Shown here in pieces: positions 24,530 to 61,729 of a stretch of DNA of 64,000 nucleotides. The notes under the pieces were generated by a model. The model had not been told where the DNA came from and ran no database searches. It worked only from the letters and a program-made list of their open reading frames with translations. Where the stretch lies: the NCBI GenBank assembly GCA_038851325.1, contig JAWCKZ010000001.1, positions 35,769 through 99,768 of the forward strand, in the 5' to 3' direction. Made by a program: the position numbers and the translations under genes. This stretch comes from Candidatus Bilamarchaeaceae archaeon (lineage in GTDB: Archaea > Micrarchaeota > Micrarchaeia > Anstonellales > Bilamarchaeaceae). Each line of letters begins with the position of its first letter. Positions within the stretch are counted from its first letter, which is position 1.

Positions 24530-24736
24530 ATGGTAAAAGTTATAACAATAATGGATGAAGTTTATTCAGAACTGTACAAATTAAAGAAATCAAAAGGGAT
24601 GTCTTTCAGCGAGGCGATCAGGTATCTTCTTGATGAACATAAAGAGAGCGGTAGTCCTATTATATCATTTGCTGGTTCCATCTCAGATGATGACATAGAC
24701 AAAAGAGCTGCTCTCAGAGTTAAAAGAGGTGTATAG
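24530..24736 (+). CDS. VapB-like antitoxin (68 aa)
   Basis: Small protein. 1-nt overlap with the downstream PIN gene. N-terminus MDEVYSELYKLKKSKGMSFSEAIRYLL resembles archaeal VapB/antitoxin families. Confidence 0.6.
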   Translation: MVKVITIMDEVYSELYKLKKSKGMSFSEAIRYLLDEHKESGSPIISFAGSISDDDIDKRAALRVKRGV

Positions 24737-25107
24737 TGGAAAAGATACTTTTAGACTATTACACAGCACTCGATTTTTTACGCGGAGAACCGCAGATAGT
24801 TGAAAAATTAAGTTACTATGCAAATACTGAGGAAATATGCATCTCTTCAGTTACCCTCGCACGTCTTCTTTTCACAATAAAAAAAACAGACGCAATAATC
24901 TCTTTTGCGTCTAGCATTACAGTACTGCCATTTGATAAAAAAAGTGCTATAATAGCATCGAAAATAAAAAGAGAAATGGATGAGAGATCAATCGACCCAC
25001 CTGAAGAGAGCATAGTAACTGCAGCAGTTTGCATGGCAAATGACGCATTCCTCTTCACACGAAGACCTGGCGATTTTGAGGGCATCAGGGGATTAAAAAG
25101 GGTTTAG
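24736..25107 (+). CDS. VapC-like PIN-domain toxin (123 aa)
   Basis: Reads along a PIN consensus: ILLD…LDFLRGEPQIVEKL…ISSVTLARL…VLPFD…IVTAAVCMANDAFLFTRRPGDFEGIRGLK. Confidence 0.65.
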   Translation: MEKILLDYYTALDFLRGEPQIVEKLSYYANTEEICISSVTLARLLFTIKKTDAIISFASSITVLPFDKKSAIIASKIKREMDERSIDPPEESIVTAAVCMANDAFLFTRRPGDFEGIRGLKRV

Positions 25108-25195: not shown

Positions 25196-26437
25196 ATGAA
25201 ATTAACACCAAAAGGAATGAGAGATTTCATGCCAGAGGAGAGTATAATCCGAGAGGAGGTTAGAGACAGAATAGCGACTATCTACAAAAAGTACGGTTTC
25301 GCTCCAATGGAAACACCTGCACTGGAATACTTCGAAACGCTCAGTGCGAAAGCAGGAGAAGAAATAGATAAACAGATATTCATGCTCAAGGATGAAAGGC
25401 TTGCGCTCAGATTTGATTTAACTGTTCCTCTTGCACGAGTCGCAGCGACTCTTGAAAGAGCAAGACCGTTTAAGAGGTACGCGATTGGTCCTGTGTGGCG
25501 AAGAGAGGAGCCGCAAAAAGGGAGATTCCGTGAATTCTGGCAAGCCGACGCAGACATAATCGGTAGTCCGAGCATGAGAGCAGAGGCAGAGCTGCTGACA
25601 ATAGCGAAAGAGATATGTGAAGAATTTGGGTTTGCCAAGCCGCGAATACTTCTTAACAACAGAAAGATACTGGATGCATTGGCACTGAAAATAGGATTTG
25701 AGGATAAAAAAGCAGAGACATACCGTCTTCTTGACAAGATAGACAAAGTTGGCAAGGATACGGTTGAGACAGAAGTTATAAAGCTTCTTGGTCAGCGTGG
25801 AAAAGAATTGCTCGATATAGTTTCAACTGGAAAAGACAACGATGAAAAGCTTGAGATAGTCGAGAAGAACGCAAAAGAGGCAAAGGAGGGAGTGAGCGAA
25901 CTACGTGAGATCCTTGAGCTCTGCAATTTTGACATTGAGATAGACCTTTCACTTGTCAGAGGTCTTGGCTACTATACTGGCCCAGTGTACGAAATAAAAT
26001 TAAGTGATGAGATTGGCACCGTAATCGCAGGTGGAAGATACGACAAACTTCTCTCACTCTACGGACGAGGTGATTATGCAACCGGGATATCTGTCGGTAT
26101 AGAACGCCTCATATCACTCTCACTCGAAAAATCAGAGAAGAGAAAAACAGAAACGAAGGCATTTATAGCAAACGCAAAGGATGAATTTTATAGAAATGCT
26201 CTTGAACTTGCTAAGAGTATAAGGGCTGCTGGAATACCTGCAGAAACCGACATCAACTCAAGAAGTCTTAGCAAACAGCTTGATTATGCCAACGCAAGAG
26301 GCATTCCATTTGTGATAATCATTGGTCAACAGGAAGTTAGTACAGGAATGTATAAGATAAGGAACATGAGGAATGGTGAGGAGAAAATAATAAAATATGA
26401 AGAATTAAGAGGCTTTTTGGAGGAACATAATGGCTAA
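25196..26437 (+). CDS. hisS: histidyl-tRNA synthetase
   Basis: Class II motifs (…FRREEPQKGRFREFWQ…, …GGRYD…, …GISVGIERL…) and a C-terminal anticodon-binding domain. Start moved to MKLTPKGMRDF. Confidence 0.9.
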   Translation: MKLTPKGMRDFMPEESIIREEVRDRIATIYKKYGFAPMETPALEYFETLSAKAGEEIDKQIFMLKDERLALRFDLTVPLARVAATLERARPFKRYAIGPVWRREEPQKGRFREFWQADADIIGSPSMRAEAELLTIAKEICEEFGFAKPRILLNNRKILDALALKIGFEDKKAETYRLLDKIDKVGKDTVETEVIKLLGQRGKELLDIVSTGKDNDEKLEIVEKNAKEAKEGVSELREILELCNFDIEIDLSLVRGLGYYTGPVYEIKLSDEIGTVIAGGRYDKLLSLYGRGDYATGISVGIERLISLSLEKSEKRKTETKAFIANAKDEFYRNALELAKSIRAAGIPAETDINSRSLSKQLDYANARGIPFVIIIGQQEVSTGMYKIRNMRNGEEKIIKYEELRGFLEEHNG

Positions 26438-26948
26438 CATCCGAATGTCTAATATCCTGAAGGTTCCTGTTATTTATATAAAGGATAAGCAAGCCTTTGA
26501 GAAGTATGCTGGAACCTTGCGGCTGCTCGGCAGTGCCCCTGAGATCGCAAGAGAGTTAAGCAAAAAATATAGATTGCTACATGTAGTTGATCTTGATCTT
26601 AAAGGCGGCAGCTTAGCAAATTTTGATATATATGATAAGCTTACATATTTCATTCACATCCAAGTAGAGTGCAGTAATGAAAGCGCTGCAAGACGCCTCC
26701 TGCAACTAAATGCACGCATAGTGGTAGAACTTCCAACTAAACTGCCGCTTGAAGAATGGAACAAAAGACTGCTCGTTGGTATTGTTAGTGGTGATGAAGA
26801 TGCAGCTCTCGTGCATGACGTAATTATCCGAAATCCATCGAAAGAAAAAATAGATAAATATCGTTCACAAGGAAAGCGTATAATGCTCTACGAAAACGAA
26901 TGGGATCAAAAGGAAGACATATGGGCGGTTATTTTGTCAAAACCTTGA
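26430..26948 (+). CDS. HisA/HisF-like (beta/alpha)-barrel fragment, probably degenerate (172 aa)
   Basis: …VPVIYIKD…YRLLHVVDLDLKGGS… aligns by eye with the HisA N-terminal half (…IPALDL…LHLVDLDGA…). The GGG phosphate-binding stretch is replaced by ECS. 8-nt overlap with the hisS stop. Confidence 0.45.
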   Translation: MANIRMSNILKVPVIYIKDKQAFEKYAGTLRLLGSAPEIARELSKKYRLLHVVDLDLKGGSLANFDIYDKLTYFIHIQVECSNESAARRLLQLNARIVVELPTKLPLEEWNKRLLVGIVSGDEDAALVHDVIIRNPSKEKIDKYRSQGKRIMLYENEWDQKEDIWAVILSKP

Positions 26949-27630
26949 CGCCTTCTTTTCCTATCTCAAAGTAATAACGCTTCATGGAATGAGGCGCGCC
27001 TTTCATTTTTATGACTTCGATAAAGCGTAGCCGTTCGTTTTTCTTTTGATCAAAGTAATATGATAGATTTATCCAACCGTCCGTAAAACTTTCTATTCCG
27101 TATGTGGTGTTTGGGAGCGCGTCCAGAGAGGATACGGTTGTATCCTCTGATATTATCAACGTCGTTGTCTCCCATTTTCTTATATTATCAATGAACTTAA
27201 GGAAGCCGTTTTTTCTTTCTTCCTCCCCTTTAAAGTAAAGCGCGATCGGCATTATCGAATCTATCACAACGCGCTTCACTCCAGATTTATTTATTATCTC
27301 CTTTATACCACCGGACTGCTGGATGAATTGGTCTACTTCATACACAGGATAGTCTAAGAAAATAAGTTTTTGCTTCTTCTCTATACCCTCGATGTCCCAC
27401 GCATATCCGCTCATATTAAAGAGCATAGAGTCTCTGCTCTCTTCTATGGAGATGTACATTCCAGGCTCATCAAACTGGTATGCACCAATATATAGAAACT
27501 GCATACCAAATGTGCTTTTTCCAACCCCTGTTGGTCCACCTATGGTTATGATAGAATTCTCTAAGAAGCCGCCATTAAGAACTTTATCCAGGCCCGGGAT
27601 GCCAGATTTTATAAACTTCCTTTCTCTCAT
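26929..27630 (-). CDS. KaiC-like RecA-superfamily ATPase (RadA paralog)
   Basis: …SGIPGLDKVLNGGFLENSIITIGGPTGVGKSTFGMQFL… (KaiC-type Walker A), plus Walker B …LIFLDY…/…VVIDSIM…. Confidence 0.7.
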   Translation of the reverse strand: MRERKFIKSGIPGLDKVLNGGFLENSIITIGGPTGVGKSTFGMQFLYIGAYQFDEPGMYISIEESRDSMLFNMSGYAWDIEGIEKKQKLIFLDYPVYEVDQFIQQSGGIKEIINKSGVKRVVIDSIMPIALYFKGEEERKNGFLKFIDNIRKWETTTLIISEDTTVSSLDALPNTTYGIESFTDGWINLSYYFDQKKNERLRFIEVIKMKGAPHSMKRYYFEIGKEGVKVLTK

Positions 27631-27633
27631 TTT

Positions 27634-28137
27634 TCACCCCTTCTTCTCTAGGAGTTTTTTGCCTGCCTCAGCCCTAAAGACTAACTGACGCTGTAGCTCT
27701 GCAATCTCTTCCGGCTTTGCCAACTTTGTTAATATAAGTCTTTTGTAATCTGCGGTGGTTGCAGAGAGTAGAGCAAGGAGTTCATGTGCCTCGCTTAGAC
27801 TAAATCTTATATCGTTTGGTCTCAAAATCTCAATGGAAAAGGGAGAGTGAGTAAGGCAGATATTCGCAAGTGTTGAAAAATTCTTGGTCAAAACTTTTAA
27901 TTCTATCGATGATGAATAGTTTTTTCCTTCACCACCCGCGATTGGTTCGTCTATCTCACCAAGAGCATAAACAACCCCGGGAGTGTAGATTATATGCTGG
28001 ATAAAGCCCGCGCCGAGGTTCTGAACATCCTCTTTAGTGGCTGCGTGGATATCAAAATACAGAAGCGCGAGCACGCCTCCTTCCGCTATCGTTTTTTCAG
28101 TAATTTTTTTAATATCTTTCTTGTCTTCCATAAACAT
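27634..28137 (-). CDS. hypothetical protein (167 aa) sitting between radA and the KaiC-like gene
   Basis: ORF track. 3-nt gap to the KaiC-like gene. Confidence 0.45.
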   Translation of the reverse strand: MFMEDKKDIKKITEKTIAEGGVLALLYFDIHAATKEDVQNLGAGFIQHIIYTPGVVYALGEIDEPIAGGEGKNYSSSIELKVLTKNFSTLANICLTHSPFSIEILRPNDIRFSLSEAHELLALLSATTADYKRLILTKLAKPEEIAELQRQLVFRAEAGKKLLEKKG

Positions 28138-28161
28138 TTTCTGTTCGTAAGCGCTTAAAAA

Positions 28162-29130
28162 TCAATCTGTTATCCCCTTCTTCGTTACCCTAAACACGCA
28201 CTCGCCCTCTGGCAGATTTGGACTATCGACAAGACGAGCTATTCTTTTATCATCCTTTCCCTTCCTTAGGTATAGTCTGTATGTCGAAGCGTGCGCAAGC
28301 ACATGGCCACCTATTGGTTTAGTTGGATCACCGAATAGCATACCTGGATCGTCCATAACCTGGTTCGTTACATAAACAGCAAGATTATAGGTATCTGCAA
28401 GCCTCTGCAGGGTATGCATATGTTTGTTAAGCTTCTGCTGTCTTTCACCAAGCGCTCCTCTACCAGTGTAGTCAGCCCTAAAATGAGAGGTAAGCGAATC
28501 AATGATAATAAGTTTAATGTTTTTTTCTTTTATGAGTTCCTCGGCTTTGTCTATTATAACCATTTGATGGTCACTGCTTTCAGCACGGACTATATATATG
28601 TTCTTCAGCACTTGCGCAGGATCCAATCCAGCACCTTCTGCTATCTGCGCTACTCTCTCTGGCCTAAATGTATGTTCTGTGTCAATAAAAAGAACGCTTC
28701 CGCCGAGCCCGCCAGCTCCTTCAGGCTTTTGAACATTTACTGAAAGTTGAAATGCGAGCTGACTTTTTCCAGAACTAAATCTAGCGTAAGCTTCTGTTAT
28801 TGCCTGTGTTTCTACACCGCCGCCCAAAAGCTCATCTAGCGCAGAAGAACCTGTTGTTATCTTTCCAACGCCTTTTCTTCTCTCATATACCGCATCTGCG
28901 GTCTCAACACCTATATCTATTGCTTCTTTCGCTGCTTCTATAGCTTTTTTTGCCGACTCCACCGACATTCCGGAAAGCTCAGAAAGGTCGTGAGGGCTTG
29001 CCGCTGCAATGGCAGAAAAGTTATCAAAACCTGCTGCCCTCAATTTTTCCGCTGTAGCCTCCCCCACACCAGGCAAATCCTCAAGTTCTTTATATATTTT
29101 CCTTGCCATAGTCACCCTCTCGATGCTCAC
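28162..29130 (-). CDS. radA: DNA repair and recombination protein RadA
   Basis: N-terminal HhH (…[17 protein letters not shown]…), Walker A …FSSGKSQL…, and …LAVYVTNQV…. Confidence 0.9.
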
Positions 29131-29429
29131 TTGTTGTTCGGGAACACGAGAAGCTTTAGCTGCCCTATTCTTAAGGTATAGAATTCATTTCCGTTTCTTG
29201 ATACGCTTTTCCACATGCCACCAACGTTTACATAAATCAGGTTTCCATTCCTATCCCTATCAGGCTGCACAACCCTAAAATCAGGTCTCGCACCTGGTTG
29301 TCGAGTTGCATCACCACCAACTCCGCTCGGCTCGCTGCCCATCCCGTTCGACGACACTGATGGCTTGTCGTAAACCTCTTCAAATCCCTCATCAACAAGG
29401 TTTATTTCTTCATTCTTCATTTCAGTCAT
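29127..29429 (-). CDS. hypothetical protein (100 aa) whose stop overlaps the radA start by 4 nt
   Basis: ORF track. Disordered Ser/Gly-rich middle. The C-terminal block …[40 protein letters not shown] could be an OB-like beta domain. This is inference. Confidence 0.45.
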
Positions 29430-29585
29430 TTGCTCACCTCATTATGTATTCATATATATTATGTATACATATACATAATATATACTAAGGGCATTAGATA
29501 TGATAGTTTTAAAAATAAATCGAACGCAGAGAGTAAAAATAAAAACCTTTTTATTTATTTTCATACACATTCAAAGCAATCTCAT

Positions 29586-30500
29586 ATGGCTGATACTATC
29601 GCGCTGAGGGATAAGATGGTTGTTTGCAGCATAAAAAAGTATAACGTGGAGGATAAAGAAAAAAGAATAGTTTGCGTAGAGACTTCAAAAAGTATTCATG
29701 CTTCTAAAAAATTGAAAGGAACTATCTTTGATCCTCAAAATGAAGAAATAATATACAAGATAGCAGAGCCTCTAAAAGAAATAGAGAACAATGCAGACCG
29801 GCTGCGGTATATTTATGAAATTTTTAATAACAAAAAAGAAAGCATAAAAAGTATTCTTTGCATAGGGTTGTTGAAAAACTGTTACTTTGAGGCTTCGTTT
29901 GATGAAAACCCGTTAACAGTAGCAGACATTATAGAAGAGGACATCATAGAAGAGGATCAAAAAGGAATAATTTTACTGGGAAATGGTGTCGAGGTTATAC
30001 TCATAAGCATAAGTGCTCTTAGGCTTGCCGATATACCCGCCTCTCCTGCTGTGATCTCACTGACAACGCCCTTTCGCAGCGAAATCATGTCCATGTTTTC
30101 TCTTGCAGTAATTGAAAAGAACCGCGCTTTTATCTCACTCCCTTACTCCGAAGTTGATATAGAACCACAAACATCGATAGAAAAACTTGAAATACTTAAT
30201 GACAACGAAGCAAAAGGATTGATAGATCTCGCTATAGCCAATGACATGCTAAACAGAATGGTAAGCAAAGCAAATATAGCAGAGGAGAACAACAAAAATC
30301 TAATCGAGATGATTGGAAAAGAGACCGTCCAGTTTATTTTTGCTGCTACTTTTTTAGATAAACACTGGAAAAACAATCCATATCGTAGATGTTTGCTCGA
30401 ATGTTTAGAGGAGTACTTAAAAAGGAATTTCGGCGAGACCAGAGGGGCTGAGATGGCAAAAGACGTTGAGAAGCTGATCAAAAATCTTAGAAAAACTTAA
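29586..30500 (+). CDS. hypothetical protein (about 304 aa from MADTIALRDK)
   Basis: ORF 29430..30500 trimmed to the internal ATG. The upstream part is AT-rich, repetitive (atatata…), promoter-like sequence. Confidence 0.5.
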   Translation: MADTIALRDKMVVCSIKKYNVEDKEKRIVCVETSKSIHASKKLKGTIFDPQNEEIIYKIAEPLKEIENNADRLRYIYEIFNNKKESIKSILCIGLLKNCYFEASFDENPLTVADIIEEDIIEEDQKGIILLGNGVEVILISISALRLADIPASPAVISLTTPFRSEIMSMFSLAVIEKNRAFISLPYSEVDIEPQTSIEKLEILNDNEAKGLIDLAIANDMLNRMVSKANIAEENNKNLIEMIGKETVQFIFAATFLDKHWKNNPYRRCLLECLEEYLKRNFGETRGAEMAKDVEKLIKNLRKT

Positions 30501-30502
30501 AT

Positions 30503-30576
30503 CGGGCCCGACGCGATTTGAACGCGTACCCCAAGGTCCGAAGCCTTGTCGGCTATCCAGGTTACCACACGGGCCC
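30503..30576 (-). tRNA. tRNA-Arg (anticodon TCG)
   Basis: Hand-folded cloverleaf on the minus strand: GGGCCCG acceptor, D-stem with two G·U pairs, anticodon stem CAAGG/CCTTG with loop CTTCGGA, T-arm ACGCG-TTCAAAT-CGCGT, acceptor CGGGCCC and discriminator G. No intron. Confidence 0.7.
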
Positions 30577-44358: not shown

Positions 44359-44510
44359 CCCTAAAACGCAGGGAGGGGGCTGATGTTTTCTTCTATTCCC
44401 CTCCCTTCATTTTTAGGGCTAATTCTGATTCCCTCCCTAAAACGCAGGGAGGGGGCTGATGTTTTCTTCTATTCCCCTCCCTTCATTTTTAGGGCTAATT
44501 CTGATTCCCT
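44359..44510 (+). repeat. two exact tandem copies of a 76-nt unit, each a long near-perfect hairpin (CCCTAAAA…GGGAGGGG…CCCCTCCC…TTTTTAGGG)
   Basis: Copy 1 at 44359-44434 and copy 2 at 44435-44510, read directly. ORF-track entries 44142..44459 and 44383..44628 are translations of this repeat. Confidence 0.85.
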
Positions 44511-44598
44511 CCCCTTTCTGTTTATTTATGTTTGTTTATTTATCTTTTTGTTTGTTTTATGTTTTTGTGTTTTTGTTTTGCGCCGATTTTATTTCAGA

Positions 44599-44717: not shown

Positions 44718-44923
44718 GGTGAGGAGAGTAGTCTGCCTTCTGTTGTAGCGGCATTTTACTACGCGGCGTAAAGCCTTGCACAATCATCGAAAGGAAAGCG
44801 TCCGTTTCATCCAAGTCAAAGCTTGGTATCGTTTCTGTTACGCTTTCAGCTCCTTAAGAGCATCACATTCTCTTGTGGGCAGAACTTCCTCCGAATCATT
44901 CGGTGAGCCGCTCTCTCCTCACC
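44718..44923 (+). ncRNA. candidate structured ncRNA (~206 nt) closed by an 11-bp terminal helix; identity unresolved (SRP RNA-like or RNase P-like motifs)
   Basis: 5' GGTGAGGAGAG pairs perfectly with 3' CTCTCTCCTCACC. Internal hairpins include CCAAG-TCAAAG-CTTGG and CCGAA-TCA-TTCGG, plus a GNRA-tetraloop-like …UCGAAAGGAAAGCGUCCG…. No ORF of at least 60 aa on this strand. It sits where the repeat module otherwise precedes tRNAs. Confidence 0.5.
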
Positions 44924-46126: not shown

Positions 46127-46232
46127 GGGCCCGTGGCGCAGCCTGGATAGCGCAGCAGCCTTCTATGCGTTTCGAACTTCGTTCAAACCCCAAGAGAGCT
46201 GACGGTCGCGAGTTCAAATCTCGCCGGGCCCG
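46127..46232 (+). tRNA. tRNA-Arg (anticodon TCT) with a 31-nt intron at the canonical 37/38 position
   Basis: GGGCCCG-TG-GCGC-AGCCTGGATA-GCGC-A-GCAGC-CTTCTA[TGCGTTTCGAACTTCGTTCAAACCCCAAGAG]A-GCTGA-CGGTC-GCGAG-TTCAAAT-CTCGC-CGGGCCC-G. The T-arm and acceptor are perfect. The anticodon stem has one G/A mismatch at its base. Confidence 0.6.
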
Positions 46233-61414: not shown

Positions 61415-61729
61415 TTTTGAACCCGGGTCACAGGCTTTCTTCCCGAACCGCAGGGAACCTACGGTTCCCCTCAGTTTGAGGTTCCTCCTGATCCCCTCCC
61501 TTAGAGAATCCCTATGAGCAACCTAAGTTCTCCTCAGGGCTTTTGATGAAACTTTTGCCCGAACCGCAGGGAACCTACGGTTCCCCTCAGTTTGAGGCTC
61601 TCCCTGACTCCCATCTTTAAGGAGATCGCCTACAACCTGAGAACTCTCTCAGGGCTTTTTGGGAACCTCTTGCTCTTAGAAAACCCAAGAGCATAAGTTT
61701 TCCTCAGGGTTTTGATGAAACTTTTGCCC
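61415..61729 (+). repeat. about 2.3 tandem copies of a 116-nt repeat with a 40-nt invariant core containing a GGGAACC-TAC-GGTTCCC hairpin and recurring CTCAGGGYTTTT elements
   Basis: The core cccgaaccgcagggaacctacggttcccctcagtttgagg is identical at 61442-61481 and 61558-61597. Flanks are divergent. No cas genes and no CRISPR-like spacing. Confidence 0.75.

What the first reader, a model, noticed from the sequence alone, without database searches (positions are those of the whole stretch)
26929..29429. RadA operon: a small unknown ORF overlapping the radA start, radA, a 167-aa unknown and a KaiC-like RadA paralog, all tightly packed on one strand
The minus-strand order is 100-aa ORF (29429-29127, stop overlapping the radA ATG by 4 nt), then radA, then a 167-aa unknown (24-nt gap), then a KaiC-like ATPase (3-nt gap). 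The overlap and short gaps suggest translational coupling, so the small proteins probably act with RadA. Mediator, SSB-like or paralog-regulator roles are possible. The 100-aa protein has a disordered Ser/Gly-rich centre and a beta-rich C-terminal block (…[46 protein letters not shown]) that I cannot place in a known RadA-accessory family.
Basis: inference. Interest (0 to 1): 0.55.

Follow-up and report, generated by a model that had tools for sequence, protein, structure and literature searches.

The report
Small conserved partner gene of RadA
In Micrarchaeota (tiny DPANN archaea), the DNA-recombinase gene radA is almost always preceded by a gene for an uncharacterised ~100-residue protein, which probably helps or controls RadA on single-stranded DNA; the other two genes of the proposed "operon" form a separate unit.

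Summary
All four ORFs exist at the stated coordinates, but the "RadA operon" is two conserved gene pairs that lie side by side only in this lineage.

**Pair 1: the 100-aa gene plus radA.** A homologue lies directly upstream of radA, on the same strand, in 75 of 79 informative Micrarchaeota species genomes. None of the other window neighbours is retained there.

**Pair 2: the 167-aa protein (Pfam MJ0538 family) plus the KaiC-like ATPase.** This pair recurs in four other Micrarchaeota next to a Nop gene, not radA. It keeps its own TATA-like box.

**The 100-aa protein has three parts:**
- an acidic N-terminal motif, D-E-G-F-E-E-V, which resembles the RadA polymerisation motif G-F-E-T-A of the same phylum;
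- a disordered linker;
- a basic four-stranded beta unit, distantly related to DUF736 (hhalign 99%). Two such units are predicted to form an eight-stranded barrel with no informative PDB match.

**Context.** Viral relatives sit in replication or recombination modules. One occupies the SSB slot after RecE and RecT and ends in the bacterial SSB tip DDGDIPF. A conserved palindrome lies in the promoter or leader.

**Best reading (inferred, not shown):** an SSB-like, RadA-docking accessory protein. No paper in the held literature describes it.

The parts
29452..29515 (-). Promoter or leader of the 100-aa gene. It holds a TATA-like TTTTTAAA (29508-29515), then cccTTAG and a perfect 15-nt inverted repeat, TATATATTATGTATA / TATACATAATATATA, with a 2-nt spacer (29453-29484). 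This is the window's version of the palindrome conserved upstream of this gene in other Micrarchaeota.
   Evidence: As RNA the leader folds at -17 kcal/mol, z = -3.0, partly pairing the SD. The exact TTAGTATATA occurs once in the 64-kb window.
29434..29440 (-). Shine-Dalgarno-like GAGGTGA, 4 nt before the ATG of the 100-aa gene.
29127..29429 (-). The 100-aa protein (p100), the RadA-linked small protein. Residues 1-19 form an acidic N-terminal motif; DEGFEEV is encoded at 29373-29393. Residues 20-47 are a disordered Ser/Gly-rich linker. Residues 48-100 are a basic four-stranded beta unit related to DUF736.
29112..29119 (-). RBS-like GAGGGTGA in front of the radA ATG at 29109.
28162..29109 (-). 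radA (315 aa from the ATG; a GTG at 29130 is the alternative start). Its polymerisation motif is V-E-T-A instead of F-x-x-A, and its Walker A is A-RFSS-GKS.
   Evidence: NCBIfam PRK04301 483 bits (cut-off 259) and TIGR02236 471 bits (cut-off 361). Pfam Rad51 1e-90. PDB alignments. Motif table.
28154..28161 (-). TATA-like TTTTTAAG in the spacer after radA, 23-30 nt before the second ATG (28131) of the 167-aa gene. It is probably that gene pair's own promoter.
   Evidence: the same position as TTTATAAA, TTTTATAAA and TTTTAATT in L081, L086 and L087.
27634..28137 (-). The 167-aa protein (probably 165 aa from 28131), Pfam PF27325 'MJ0538' family. Function unknown. It is the conserved partner of the KaiC-like ATPase, not of RadA.
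26929..27630 (-). Single-domain KaiC-family ATPase, 233 aa, 3 nt after the 167-aa gene.
   Evidence: Pfam KaiC 1.9e-51. NCBIfam KaiC_arch_3 127 bits, below the cut-off of 249. PDB hits: KaiC 1e-48, Sso2452 8e-15.

Best explanation
The 100-aa gene and radA form a two-gene unit that is conserved across Micrarchaeota and expressed from a regulated promoter upstream of the small gene.

The small protein is a RadA accessory factor with an SSB-like, modular build:
- Its basic C-terminal four-stranded unit pairs with a second copy to form an eight-stranded DUF736-type barrel that binds single-stranded DNA (inferred).
- A flexible linker carries an acidic N-terminal tip.
- The tip's G-F-E-E-[V/I/L] motif imitates the RadA polymerisation motif G-F-E-T-A. 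It docks on the RadA ATPase core as BRC repeats dock on RAD51 (inferred).

In this way the protein would bring RadA to ssDNA or tune filament growth.

**Shown:** the gene is real and conserved; it is linked to radA; its domain architecture; its homology to DUF736-scoring proteins; the replication or recombination context of viral relatives; and the conserved cis element.

**Inferred:** DNA binding, dimerisation, contact with RadA, and whether the effect is positive or negative.

The 167-aa and KaiC-like genes downstream are a separate, independently promoted pair that is adjacent to radA only in this lineage.
For: **Linkage**
- 75 of 79 informative GTDB species-representative loci have radA directly downstream on the same strand. 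The gap has a median of 56 nt and ranges from -10 to 460 nt. None of the window's other neighbours is retained.
- The divergent members P0262 and P0283 are also directly upstream of radA; in the P0283 locus the resolvase gene hjc lies nearby.

**Architecture**
- The first 20 residues carry a median net charge of -5 and the C-domain +5.
- 22 columns are invariant, including W73, F83, Y84, K92 and F96.
- The AF2 C-domain has pLDDT above 90.

**Homology and fold**
- hhalign gives 99.1% probability between the p100 family and the tandem proteins. Members of that tandem set pass the Pfam DUF736 threshold.
- The AF2 model of a tandem protein gives a compact eight-stranded barrel, pTM 0.72.

**Context of relatives**
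- P0327 follows a RecE-like exonuclease and a RecT-like annealing protein and precedes a DnaC-like loader. It ends in DDGDIPF, the bacterial SSB tip.
- P0243 and P0258 lie near protein-primed PolB genes.
- P0322 lies directly after a PD-(D/E)xK nuclease.
- A weak phage hit lies directly before an exonuclease gene.

**N-terminal motif**
- An [FY][EV]E[VILMA] motif is present in 61 of 80 loci. The four loci where the gene is not next to radA all lack it.
- The G-F-E-E codons vary at synonymous sites, so selection acts on the peptide.
- Micrarchaeota RadA carries I-G-F-E-T-A-D at the position aligned with FKTA of S. solfataricus RadA.

**Regulation**
- A palindrome is found within 200 nt upstream in 39 of 80 loci, against 6 hits elsewhere in 757 kb.
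- The extended form was followed by this gene in 5 of 5 metagenome hits.
Against: - No direct test of DNA binding or RadA binding was possible.
- The SSB-tip relative P0327 is a singleton, and its similarity to the p100 family is modest (E 3.7e-4).
- The fourth motif residue is V, I or L, not Ala. In the RAD51/RadA system the Ala is highly conserved; an ethyl side chain there costs about twofold in affinity, and Ser or Glu abolish binding (PMC4855620).
- A second subclade carries a different N-terminus (SG[DE]GEMP) whose codons are constrained at the RNA level. RadA docking through G-F-E-E therefore cannot be universal.
- Gaps of up to 460 nt mean co-transcription is not assured everywhere.
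Confidence: 0.5

Rival explanations
1. The small protein is a negative regulator of RadA, like RecX, DinI or PsiB. Its acidic tip, or its mimic of the polymerisation motif, caps or destabilises RadA filaments rather than loading RadA. Its position upstream of radA, under the same promoter, sets the stoichiometry.
For: - It has the same linkage to radA as the best explanation.
- A free copy of a polymerisation motif would be expected to compete with RadA self-association, as isolated BRC/FxxA peptides do (PMC4855620).
- The N-terminus is strongly acidic, net -6 over the first 20 residues, reminiscent of DNA-mimicking tails (own knowledge).
- In the window's subclade RadA itself has V or I instead of F in the motif, while the small protein keeps F or Y.
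Against: - There is no sequence or fold similarity to RecX, DinI or PsiB.
- Viral relatives sit in pro-recombination modules.
- The sign of the effect cannot be read from sequence.
Confidence: 0.2
2. It is a general single-stranded-DNA-binding or nucleoid protein of Micrarchaeota, merely co-expressed with radA. Its acidic tip serves self-regulation or other partners, and it makes no specific contact with RadA.
For: - Its architecture mirrors bacterial SSB: a folded domain, a disordered linker and an acidic tip.
- The viral relative P0327 sits in the SSB slot and carries an SSB tip.
- The C-domain is far more conserved than the N-terminus across subclades.
Against: - Adjacency to radA is maintained across the phylum while all other neighbours change. 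That is unusual for a housekeeping SSB.
- The N-terminal F-E-E motif goes with radA adjacency: 60 of 61 loci that carry it are adjacent to radA and the remaining one is cut by a contig end, whereas the four non-adjacent loci all lack it.
- I could not check whether these genomes lack a canonical RPA or SSB.
Confidence: 0.15
3. It is the autoregulator of its own operon. A symmetric dimer of the beta unit binds the palindrome upstream of its gene, or the equivalent hairpin in the mRNA leader, much as T4 gp32 controls its own translation.
For: - The palindrome is specific to this gene's upstream region.
- The half-sites are about 21 bp apart centre to centre, which would suit a dimer.
- The 3' arm abuts or overlaps the SD, and the leader folds at -17 kcal/mol, z = -3.
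Against: - The C-domain is nearly invariant across subclades, yet subclade B has an entirely different leader element.
- Viral relatives are not in regulator positions.
- An acidic disordered tail is not typical of transcription factors.
- No similarity to AbrB-type or other DNA-binding barrels was found.
Confidence: 0.07
4. One reading: all four genes form one translationally coupled RadA operon, and the 167-aa and KaiC-like proteins also act with RadA.
For: - In this window the genes are tightly packed on one strand, with gaps of 17, 24-30 and 3 nt.
- KaiC-like ATPases belong to the RecA superfamily, and some single-domain archaeal members (aRadC/Sso2452) act in repair (own knowledge; weak hit).
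Against: - The 167-aa plus KaiC-like pair occurs without radA in four other Micrarchaeota and is absent from the 80 radA loci.
- Its own TATA-like box is retained.
- The ATPase is closest to KaiC, not to aRadC.
Confidence: 0.08

Closest known systems
Pfam DUF736 (PF05284): uncharacterised ~100-aa proteins that are backbone genes of proteobacterial ICEs and plasmids (msi110 of ICEMlSymR7A; PMC8627217)
   Same: They share the beta-hairpin unit [PD][FY]R[VI]...VG[GA][MI]WK..SK.G..[FY]..[LV].IG.L[KR]L..F.N. Pfam matches residues 43-89. Intermediate relatives pass the DUF736 threshold, and hhalign links the families at 99.1%.
   Different: The window protein scores 16.8 bits, below the threshold of 22.1. 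It has one unit rather than two, adds an acidic N-terminal motif and a disordered linker, is archaeal and chromosomal, and is linked to radA. DUF736 itself has no known function.
Bacterial and phage SSB proteins (folded DNA-binding core, disordered linker, acidic tip such as DDDIPF)
   Same: The logic is a modular core, linker and acidic tip. One relative (P0327) carries a genuine DDGDIPF tip and sits in the SSB slot of a RecE-RecT module.
   Different: The fold is not an OB fold. The tip is N-terminal. DNA binding is untested.
BRC repeats of BRCA2 and other FxxA-motif partners of RAD51/RadA
   Same: The short motif G-F-E-E-[VIL] resembles the recombinase's own polymerisation motif, G-F-E-T-A in Micrarchaeota. 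BRCA2 likewise combines recombinase-docking motifs with DNA-binding domains (own knowledge).
   Different: The fourth residue is not Ala. There is no LFDE-like second module. One subclade lacks the motif. Binding is untested (one search gives the known constraints).
RecX, DinI and PsiB: small bacterial RecA modulators, with recX often co-transcribed with recA
   Same: It is a small protein genetically coupled to the recombinase gene.
   Different: There is no sequence or fold similarity, and the gene lies upstream rather than downstream.
Archaeal RadA paralogues (RadB, aRadC/Sso2452, Rad55), the known archaeal mediators
   Same: The presumed role is to assist RadA.
   Different: Those are RecA-fold ATPases; this protein is a 100-aa beta protein. 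The window's KaiC-like gene is nearer to KaiC than to aRadC.

Membership tests
Pfam DUF736 (PF05284) | HMM score at or above the gathering threshold of 22.1 bits | tested here: not met
   The window protein scores 16.8 bits, E 0.006. The relatives P0242, P0303, P0243, P0327 and P0308 score 32.2, 27.3, 25.4, 23.7 and 22.8 bits. hhalign against the tandem set gives 99.1%. It is therefore a homologous superfamily member but not a Pfam family member.
Pfam DUF736 (PF05284) | Two-unit, ~100-aa architecture forming one barrel | tested here: not met
   The window protein has a single unit, residues 48-100. Tandem relatives model as an eight-stranded barrel.
RadA (archaeal recombinase), for the second gene | Equivalog HMM scores above the cut-offs; HhH N-domain plus Rad51 core | tested here: met
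   PRK04301 scores 483 bits (cut-off 259) and TIGR02236 471 bits (cut-off 361). HHH_5 and Rad51 domains are found. The best PDB match is P. furiosus RadA, E 6e-119.
RadA (archaeal recombinase), for the second gene | F-x-x-A polymerisation motif in the linker | tested here: not met
   The window has V-E-T-A. Its close relatives have I-E-[TSR]-[GA], and most Micrarchaeota have F-E-T-A.
SSB-like proteins | OB-fold DNA-binding core | tested here: not met
SSB-like proteins | Binding to ssDNA | not testable with these tools
   The only support is contextual plus a net charge of +5 on the C-domain.
FxxA / BRC-type recombinase-binding motifs | Phe and Ala spaced by two residues | tested here: not met
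   The motif is F-E-E-[V/I/L/M]. Phe or Tyr is conserved, but Ala is replaced by a larger aliphatic residue.
FxxA / BRC-type recombinase-binding motifs | Physical binding to the recombinase ATPase core | not testable with these tools
   No multimer prediction was available.
Pfam MJ0538 (PF27325), for the 167-aa protein | Match to the family HMM | tested here: met
   The match comes from precomputed Pfam hits on the 100%-identical P0121 and on all 120 listed homologues, and from the name given. The model is absent from the local Pfam copy.
KaiC family (PF06745), for the 233-aa protein | Pfam score above 26.6 bits; subfamily equivalogs | tested here: met
   Pfam scores 175 bits. The NCBIfam subfamilies KaiC_arch_3 (127 bits against 249) and ArlH are below their cut-offs, so it belongs to the family but to no named subfamily.

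The most novel reading that the evidence does not exclude
The small protein is a minimal, BRCA2-like recombination mediator of DPANN archaea. A mimic of the RadA polymerisation motif is tethered to a previously unrecognised ssDNA-binding beta barrel, the DUF736 fold. If so, the reading would also give a first function to DUF736 proteins: handling ssDNA and RecA-family recombinases on bacterial conjugative elements and in phage recombination modules.
Probability: 0.2. Interest if true: 0.8.

Novelty: new variant of a known kind. Interest (0 to 1): 0.6.

Why it matters
Archaeal recombination mediators known so far are RadA paralogues. No small non-ATPase partner encoded with radA has been described, and the held literature has nothing on this family: only four passing mentions of DUF736 and none of MJ0538.

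A phylum-wide radA partner with a clear modular build gives a directly testable handle on how genome-reduced DPANN archaea load or restrain RadA. It also offers a route to the function of the widespread DUF736 superfamily of mobile elements. Finally, it corrects a plausible but wrong four-gene operon call.

Tried and rejected
- **Foldseek against BFVD:** nothing below E 1e-3.
- **afdb50 library:** not available.
- **Profile searches of PDB sequences for both small proteins:** nothing significant.
- **PHROGs and NCBIfam:** no hits for either small protein.
- **tblastn against phages and plasmids:** no match for the window protein against phages, none for the DUF736-scoring relative P0242 against plasmids, and one weak phage hit for P0327.
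- **IMG/VR scan with the family profile:** no relatives.
- **Homologue search with the SSB-tip relative P0327:** it is a singleton, so the SSB-tip argument rests on a single protein.
- **Metagenome scan for the core palindrome, meant to define a regulon:** the 19-base core is not specific (7 of 120 hits lie next to the gene). Only the extended form is specific (5 of 5).
- **Literature searches:** no functional data for DUF736, MJ0538 or Micrarchaeota with RadA. Makarova et al. 2017 on KaiC-like ATPases is not held.
- **FN3-like multi-repeat proteins in the representative search (P0309, P0326):** rejected as spurious beta-hairpin similarity.
- **RNA hairpin versus DNA operator for the clade A palindrome:** could not be decided. 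Core substitutions are uncompensated, but the flanking triplets covary, and symmetric half-sites would covary in the same way.
Full report
**Observation.** The four minus-strand ORFs exist as described. They are a 100-aa ORF (29127-29429), radA (28162-29130 in the mechanical ORF list), a 167-aa ORF (27634-28137) and a 233-aa KaiC-like ORF (26929-27630). The 24-nt and 3-nt gaps are correct. The stated 4-nt overlap with "the radA ATG" is not. The overlapped codon is a GTG (GTGA). The first in-frame ATG is at 29109, preceded by GAGGGTGA, and alignments to other RadA proteins begin there. The real spacer is therefore most likely 17 nt. The 167-aa protein probably starts at its second ATG, because the 100%-identical database protein is 165 aa.

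**Identity of the genes.** The source is a Micrarchaeota (DPANN) archaeon of the Bilamarchaeaceae; the best hits are 99-100% identical MAG proteins.
- **Gene 2** is a bona fide RadA (PRK04301 483 bits, TIGR02236 471 bits).
- **Gene 4** is a single-domain KaiC-family ATPase (Pfam 1.9e-51). It is much closer to KaiC (1e-48) than to the archaeal RadA paralogue Sso2452 (8e-15).
- **Gene 3** belongs to the recent Pfam family PF27325 "MJ0538". I found no literature on that family and no structural relative by sequence.
- **Gene 1** gives only a sub-threshold Pfam hit to DUF736 (16.8 bits against 22.1).

**Two modules, not one operon.** A profile of the 100-aa family recovered 80 loci from GTDB species representatives, all of them Micrarchaeota. 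In 75 of the 79 informative loci, radA lies immediately downstream on the same strand. The gap has a median of 56 nt and ranges from -10 to 460 nt. None of the window's other neighbours recurs in these loci: the 167-aa gene, hisS, the GGGP-synthase-like gene, the thermosome gene and ftsZ are all absent, and a KaiC-like gene appears only in L044. Two divergent family members (P0262, P0283) are also directly upstream of radA; in the P0283 locus hjc lies two genes further on.

The 167-aa gene behaves differently. In four other Micrarchaeota it is directly followed by a KaiC-like ATPase (gap or overlap of 0-3 nt). It is preceded there by a divergent Nop-domain gene and followed by the same His_biosynth-like and HisRS genes as in the window. 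In Bilamarchaeum dharawalense the two pairs lie about 185 kb apart on one contig. A TATA-like box sits 23-31 nt before the start codon in L081, L086 and L087, and in the window (TTTTTAAG, 28154-28161, relative to the second ATG). I infer that the 167-aa plus KaiC-like pair is an independent transcription unit that has come to lie behind radA in this lineage.

**Anatomy of the 100-aa family.** Forty aligned members share three parts:
- an acidic N-terminal motif, consensus MKExEVxLxDEGFEE[VIL];
- a low-complexity linker of very variable length;
- a nearly invariant C-terminal block of about 50 residues, [51 protein letters not shown].

The first 20 residues carry a median net charge of -5 and the C-domain +5. 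AlphaFold2 leaves residues 1-47 unstructured and gives a four-stranded meander for residues 51-95 with pLDDT above 90.

**Context of relatives outside Micrarchaeota.**
- P0327 has one unit, a Pro/Gln-rich linker and a C-terminal DDGDIPF. It lies directly after a RecE-like exonuclease (4e-51) and a RecT-like annealing protein (6e-33), and upstream of a DnaC-like loader two genes on. This is the usual slot of a phage SSB, and DDGDIPF is the bacterial SSB tip.
- P0243 and P0258 lie in virus-like contigs with protein-primed PolB.
- P0322 lies directly after a PD-(D/E)xK nuclease, with RusA and an integrase nearby.
- A weak phage hit lies directly before an exonuclease gene.
- DUF736 genes are backbone genes of Mesorhizobium ICEs (PMC8627217).

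Together these contexts point to ssDNA and recombination transactions. P0327 is a singleton, however, and no member of the superfamily has been tested.

**The N-terminal motif.** Micrarchaeota RadA carries I-G-F-E-T-A-D at the position aligned with the polymerisation motif FKTA of S. solfataricus RadA. The small protein's best-conserved N-terminal residues are G-F-E-E-[VIL].
- The codons vary at synonymous sites (GGA/GGT/GGC, TTC/TTT, GAG/GAA), so the constraint is on the peptide.
- The motif is present in 61 of 80 loci. The four loci in which the gene is not next to radA all lack it.
- This suggests BRC-like docking on the RadA core.

There are three caveats. The fourth residue is not Ala, which is highly conserved in this system; an ethyl side chain there costs about twofold in affinity, and Ser or Glu abolish binding (PMC4855620). 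A second subclade has a different N-terminus, SG[DE]GEMP, whose codons are invariant and pair with the mRNA leader. And there is no strict co-variation with the RadA motif. In the window's own subclade RadA has V or I in place of the Phe, while the small protein keeps F or Y.

**Regulation.** Upstream of the small gene, most loci share this layout: GCGGAAATGA, then about 13 nt, a TATA box, about 20 nt, and then cc[c/a]tTAGTATATAC-N11-GTATATACT[t/c]a[g/t]g abutting the SD.
- The palindrome occurs within 200 nt upstream in 39 of 80 loci, against 6 hits elsewhere in 757 kb.
- The extended form was followed by this gene in 5 of 5 metagenome occurrences. The 19-base core alone is not specific.
- The window has a rearranged version, a perfect 15-nt inverted repeat with a 2-nt spacer (29453-29484). 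As RNA it would fold at -17 kcal/mol and pair part of the SD.

I could not decide whether the element acts as a DNA operator or as a leader hairpin. Either way, the unit appears specifically regulated from a promoter upstream of the small gene.

**Interpretation.** The best-supported reading is a RadA accessory protein with SSB-like modular logic. It would have a dimeric basic barrel on ssDNA and a flexible acidic tip that contacts RadA, possibly by imitating its polymerisation motif. I put functional linkage to RadA at about 0.8 and the specific mechanism at about 0.3-0.5. The rivals are:
- a RecX-, DinI- or PsiB-like negative regulator;
- a general SSB or nucleoid protein that is merely co-expressed;
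- an autoregulator that binds the palindrome.

**Novelty.** The held literature contains no description of this family or of a small radA-linked gene in archaea. It is best called a new variant of a known kind, a recombinase accessory or SSB-like factor, built on an uncharacterised fold. If the mediator model holds, it would also suggest a function for DUF736 on mobile elements.

Noticed in passing
L003, L009, L013, L015, L016, L036, L047, L074, L077 (radA genes): radA is interrupted by insertions of about 1.4-1.5 kb at two sites: after the residue aligned to window RadA position ~116 (P-loop region) and at ~273-275. L015 has both. These are probably inteins. The window's radA has none.
   Followed up: no
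window 28162-29109 (-) and L001-L005, L007, L040, L050, L052: The window's RadA subclade has Ala instead of Gly at the first Walker A position (YARFSSGKS against YGKFSSGKS). In the window and L001-L004 the Phe of the polymerisation motif is also replaced by Val or Ile (GVETA, GIETG). The partner protein keeps the aromatic residue in its G-F/Y-E-E motif.
   Followed up: partly
L006-L052, about 40-110 nt upstream of the small gene: A conserved GCGGAAATGA (more generally [CT]GGAAA) motif lies 12-16 nt upstream of the TATA box of the small gene in most subclades. It is absent from the promoters of the 167-aa gene. It may be an upstream regulatory site. It is not evident in the window itself.
   Followed up: partly
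L063, L066, L068, L071, L073, L074, L077, L078 (-62 to +30 around the start codon): In the SG[DE]GEMP subclade the mRNA leader has a conserved structure. AUUUCACC pairs with codons 6-8 (GGU GAA AU), an 8-bp helix that is invariant, so the SD and AUG are enclosed. An inner GC hairpin shows compensatory changes in 5 pairs. The GEMP 'peptide motif' may therefore reflect an RNA-level constraint.
   Followed up: partly
P0001 (closest MAG protein, 99% identical): The public annotation of the closest genome calls this gene as 76 aa, cutting off the conserved acidic N-terminal motif. Family-wide conservation supports the 100-aa start at 29429 with its GAGGTGA.
   Followed up: yes
L082 3873-4160; L084 5535-5939; L088 2970-3206; L089 5001-5390: DUF736-like small proteins recur in viral replication and recombination modules: after RecE and RecT, near protein-primed PolB, and after a PD-(D/E)xK nuclease. 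One carries the bacterial SSB tip DDGDIPF. This gives a functional lead for the uncharacterised DUF736 superfamily.
   Followed up: partly
window 30503-30576 (-) and 29430-30500 (+): A tRNA-Arg(TCG) gene abuts the end of the 356-aa plus-strand ORF. That ORF has no family match, and its true start is probably the ATG near 29586 (MADTIALRD...). This leaves a divergent AT-rich intergenic region of about 156 nt shared with the 100-aa gene.
   Followed up: no
window 44718-44923 (-) and 44359-44513: The archaeal RNase P RNA match spans only 206 nt against a 288-position model (95.6 bits). A perfect 76-bp x2 tandem duplication lies about 200 nt away.
   Followed up: no
window 46127-46232 (+): A tRNA is detected by Rfam (106 nt, so it probably contains an intron) but not by ARAGORN.
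   Followed up: no
window 61442-61659: A 116-bp unit is repeated 1.9 times (82% matches). Its nature is unknown.
   Followed up: no
window 24530-25107 (+): Two small ORFs, 68 aa and 123 aa, overlap by one base between ftsZ and hisS. The layout looks like a toxin-antitoxin-type cassette. This was not tested.
   Followed up: no
window 26430-26948 (+): A 172-aa ORF gives only weak HisA-like hits (E 7e-4). It converges on the KaiC-like gene and overlaps its 3' end by 20 nt. The same small gene sits between the KaiC-like gene and hisS in other Micrarchaeota (L081, L086, L087).
   Followed up: partly
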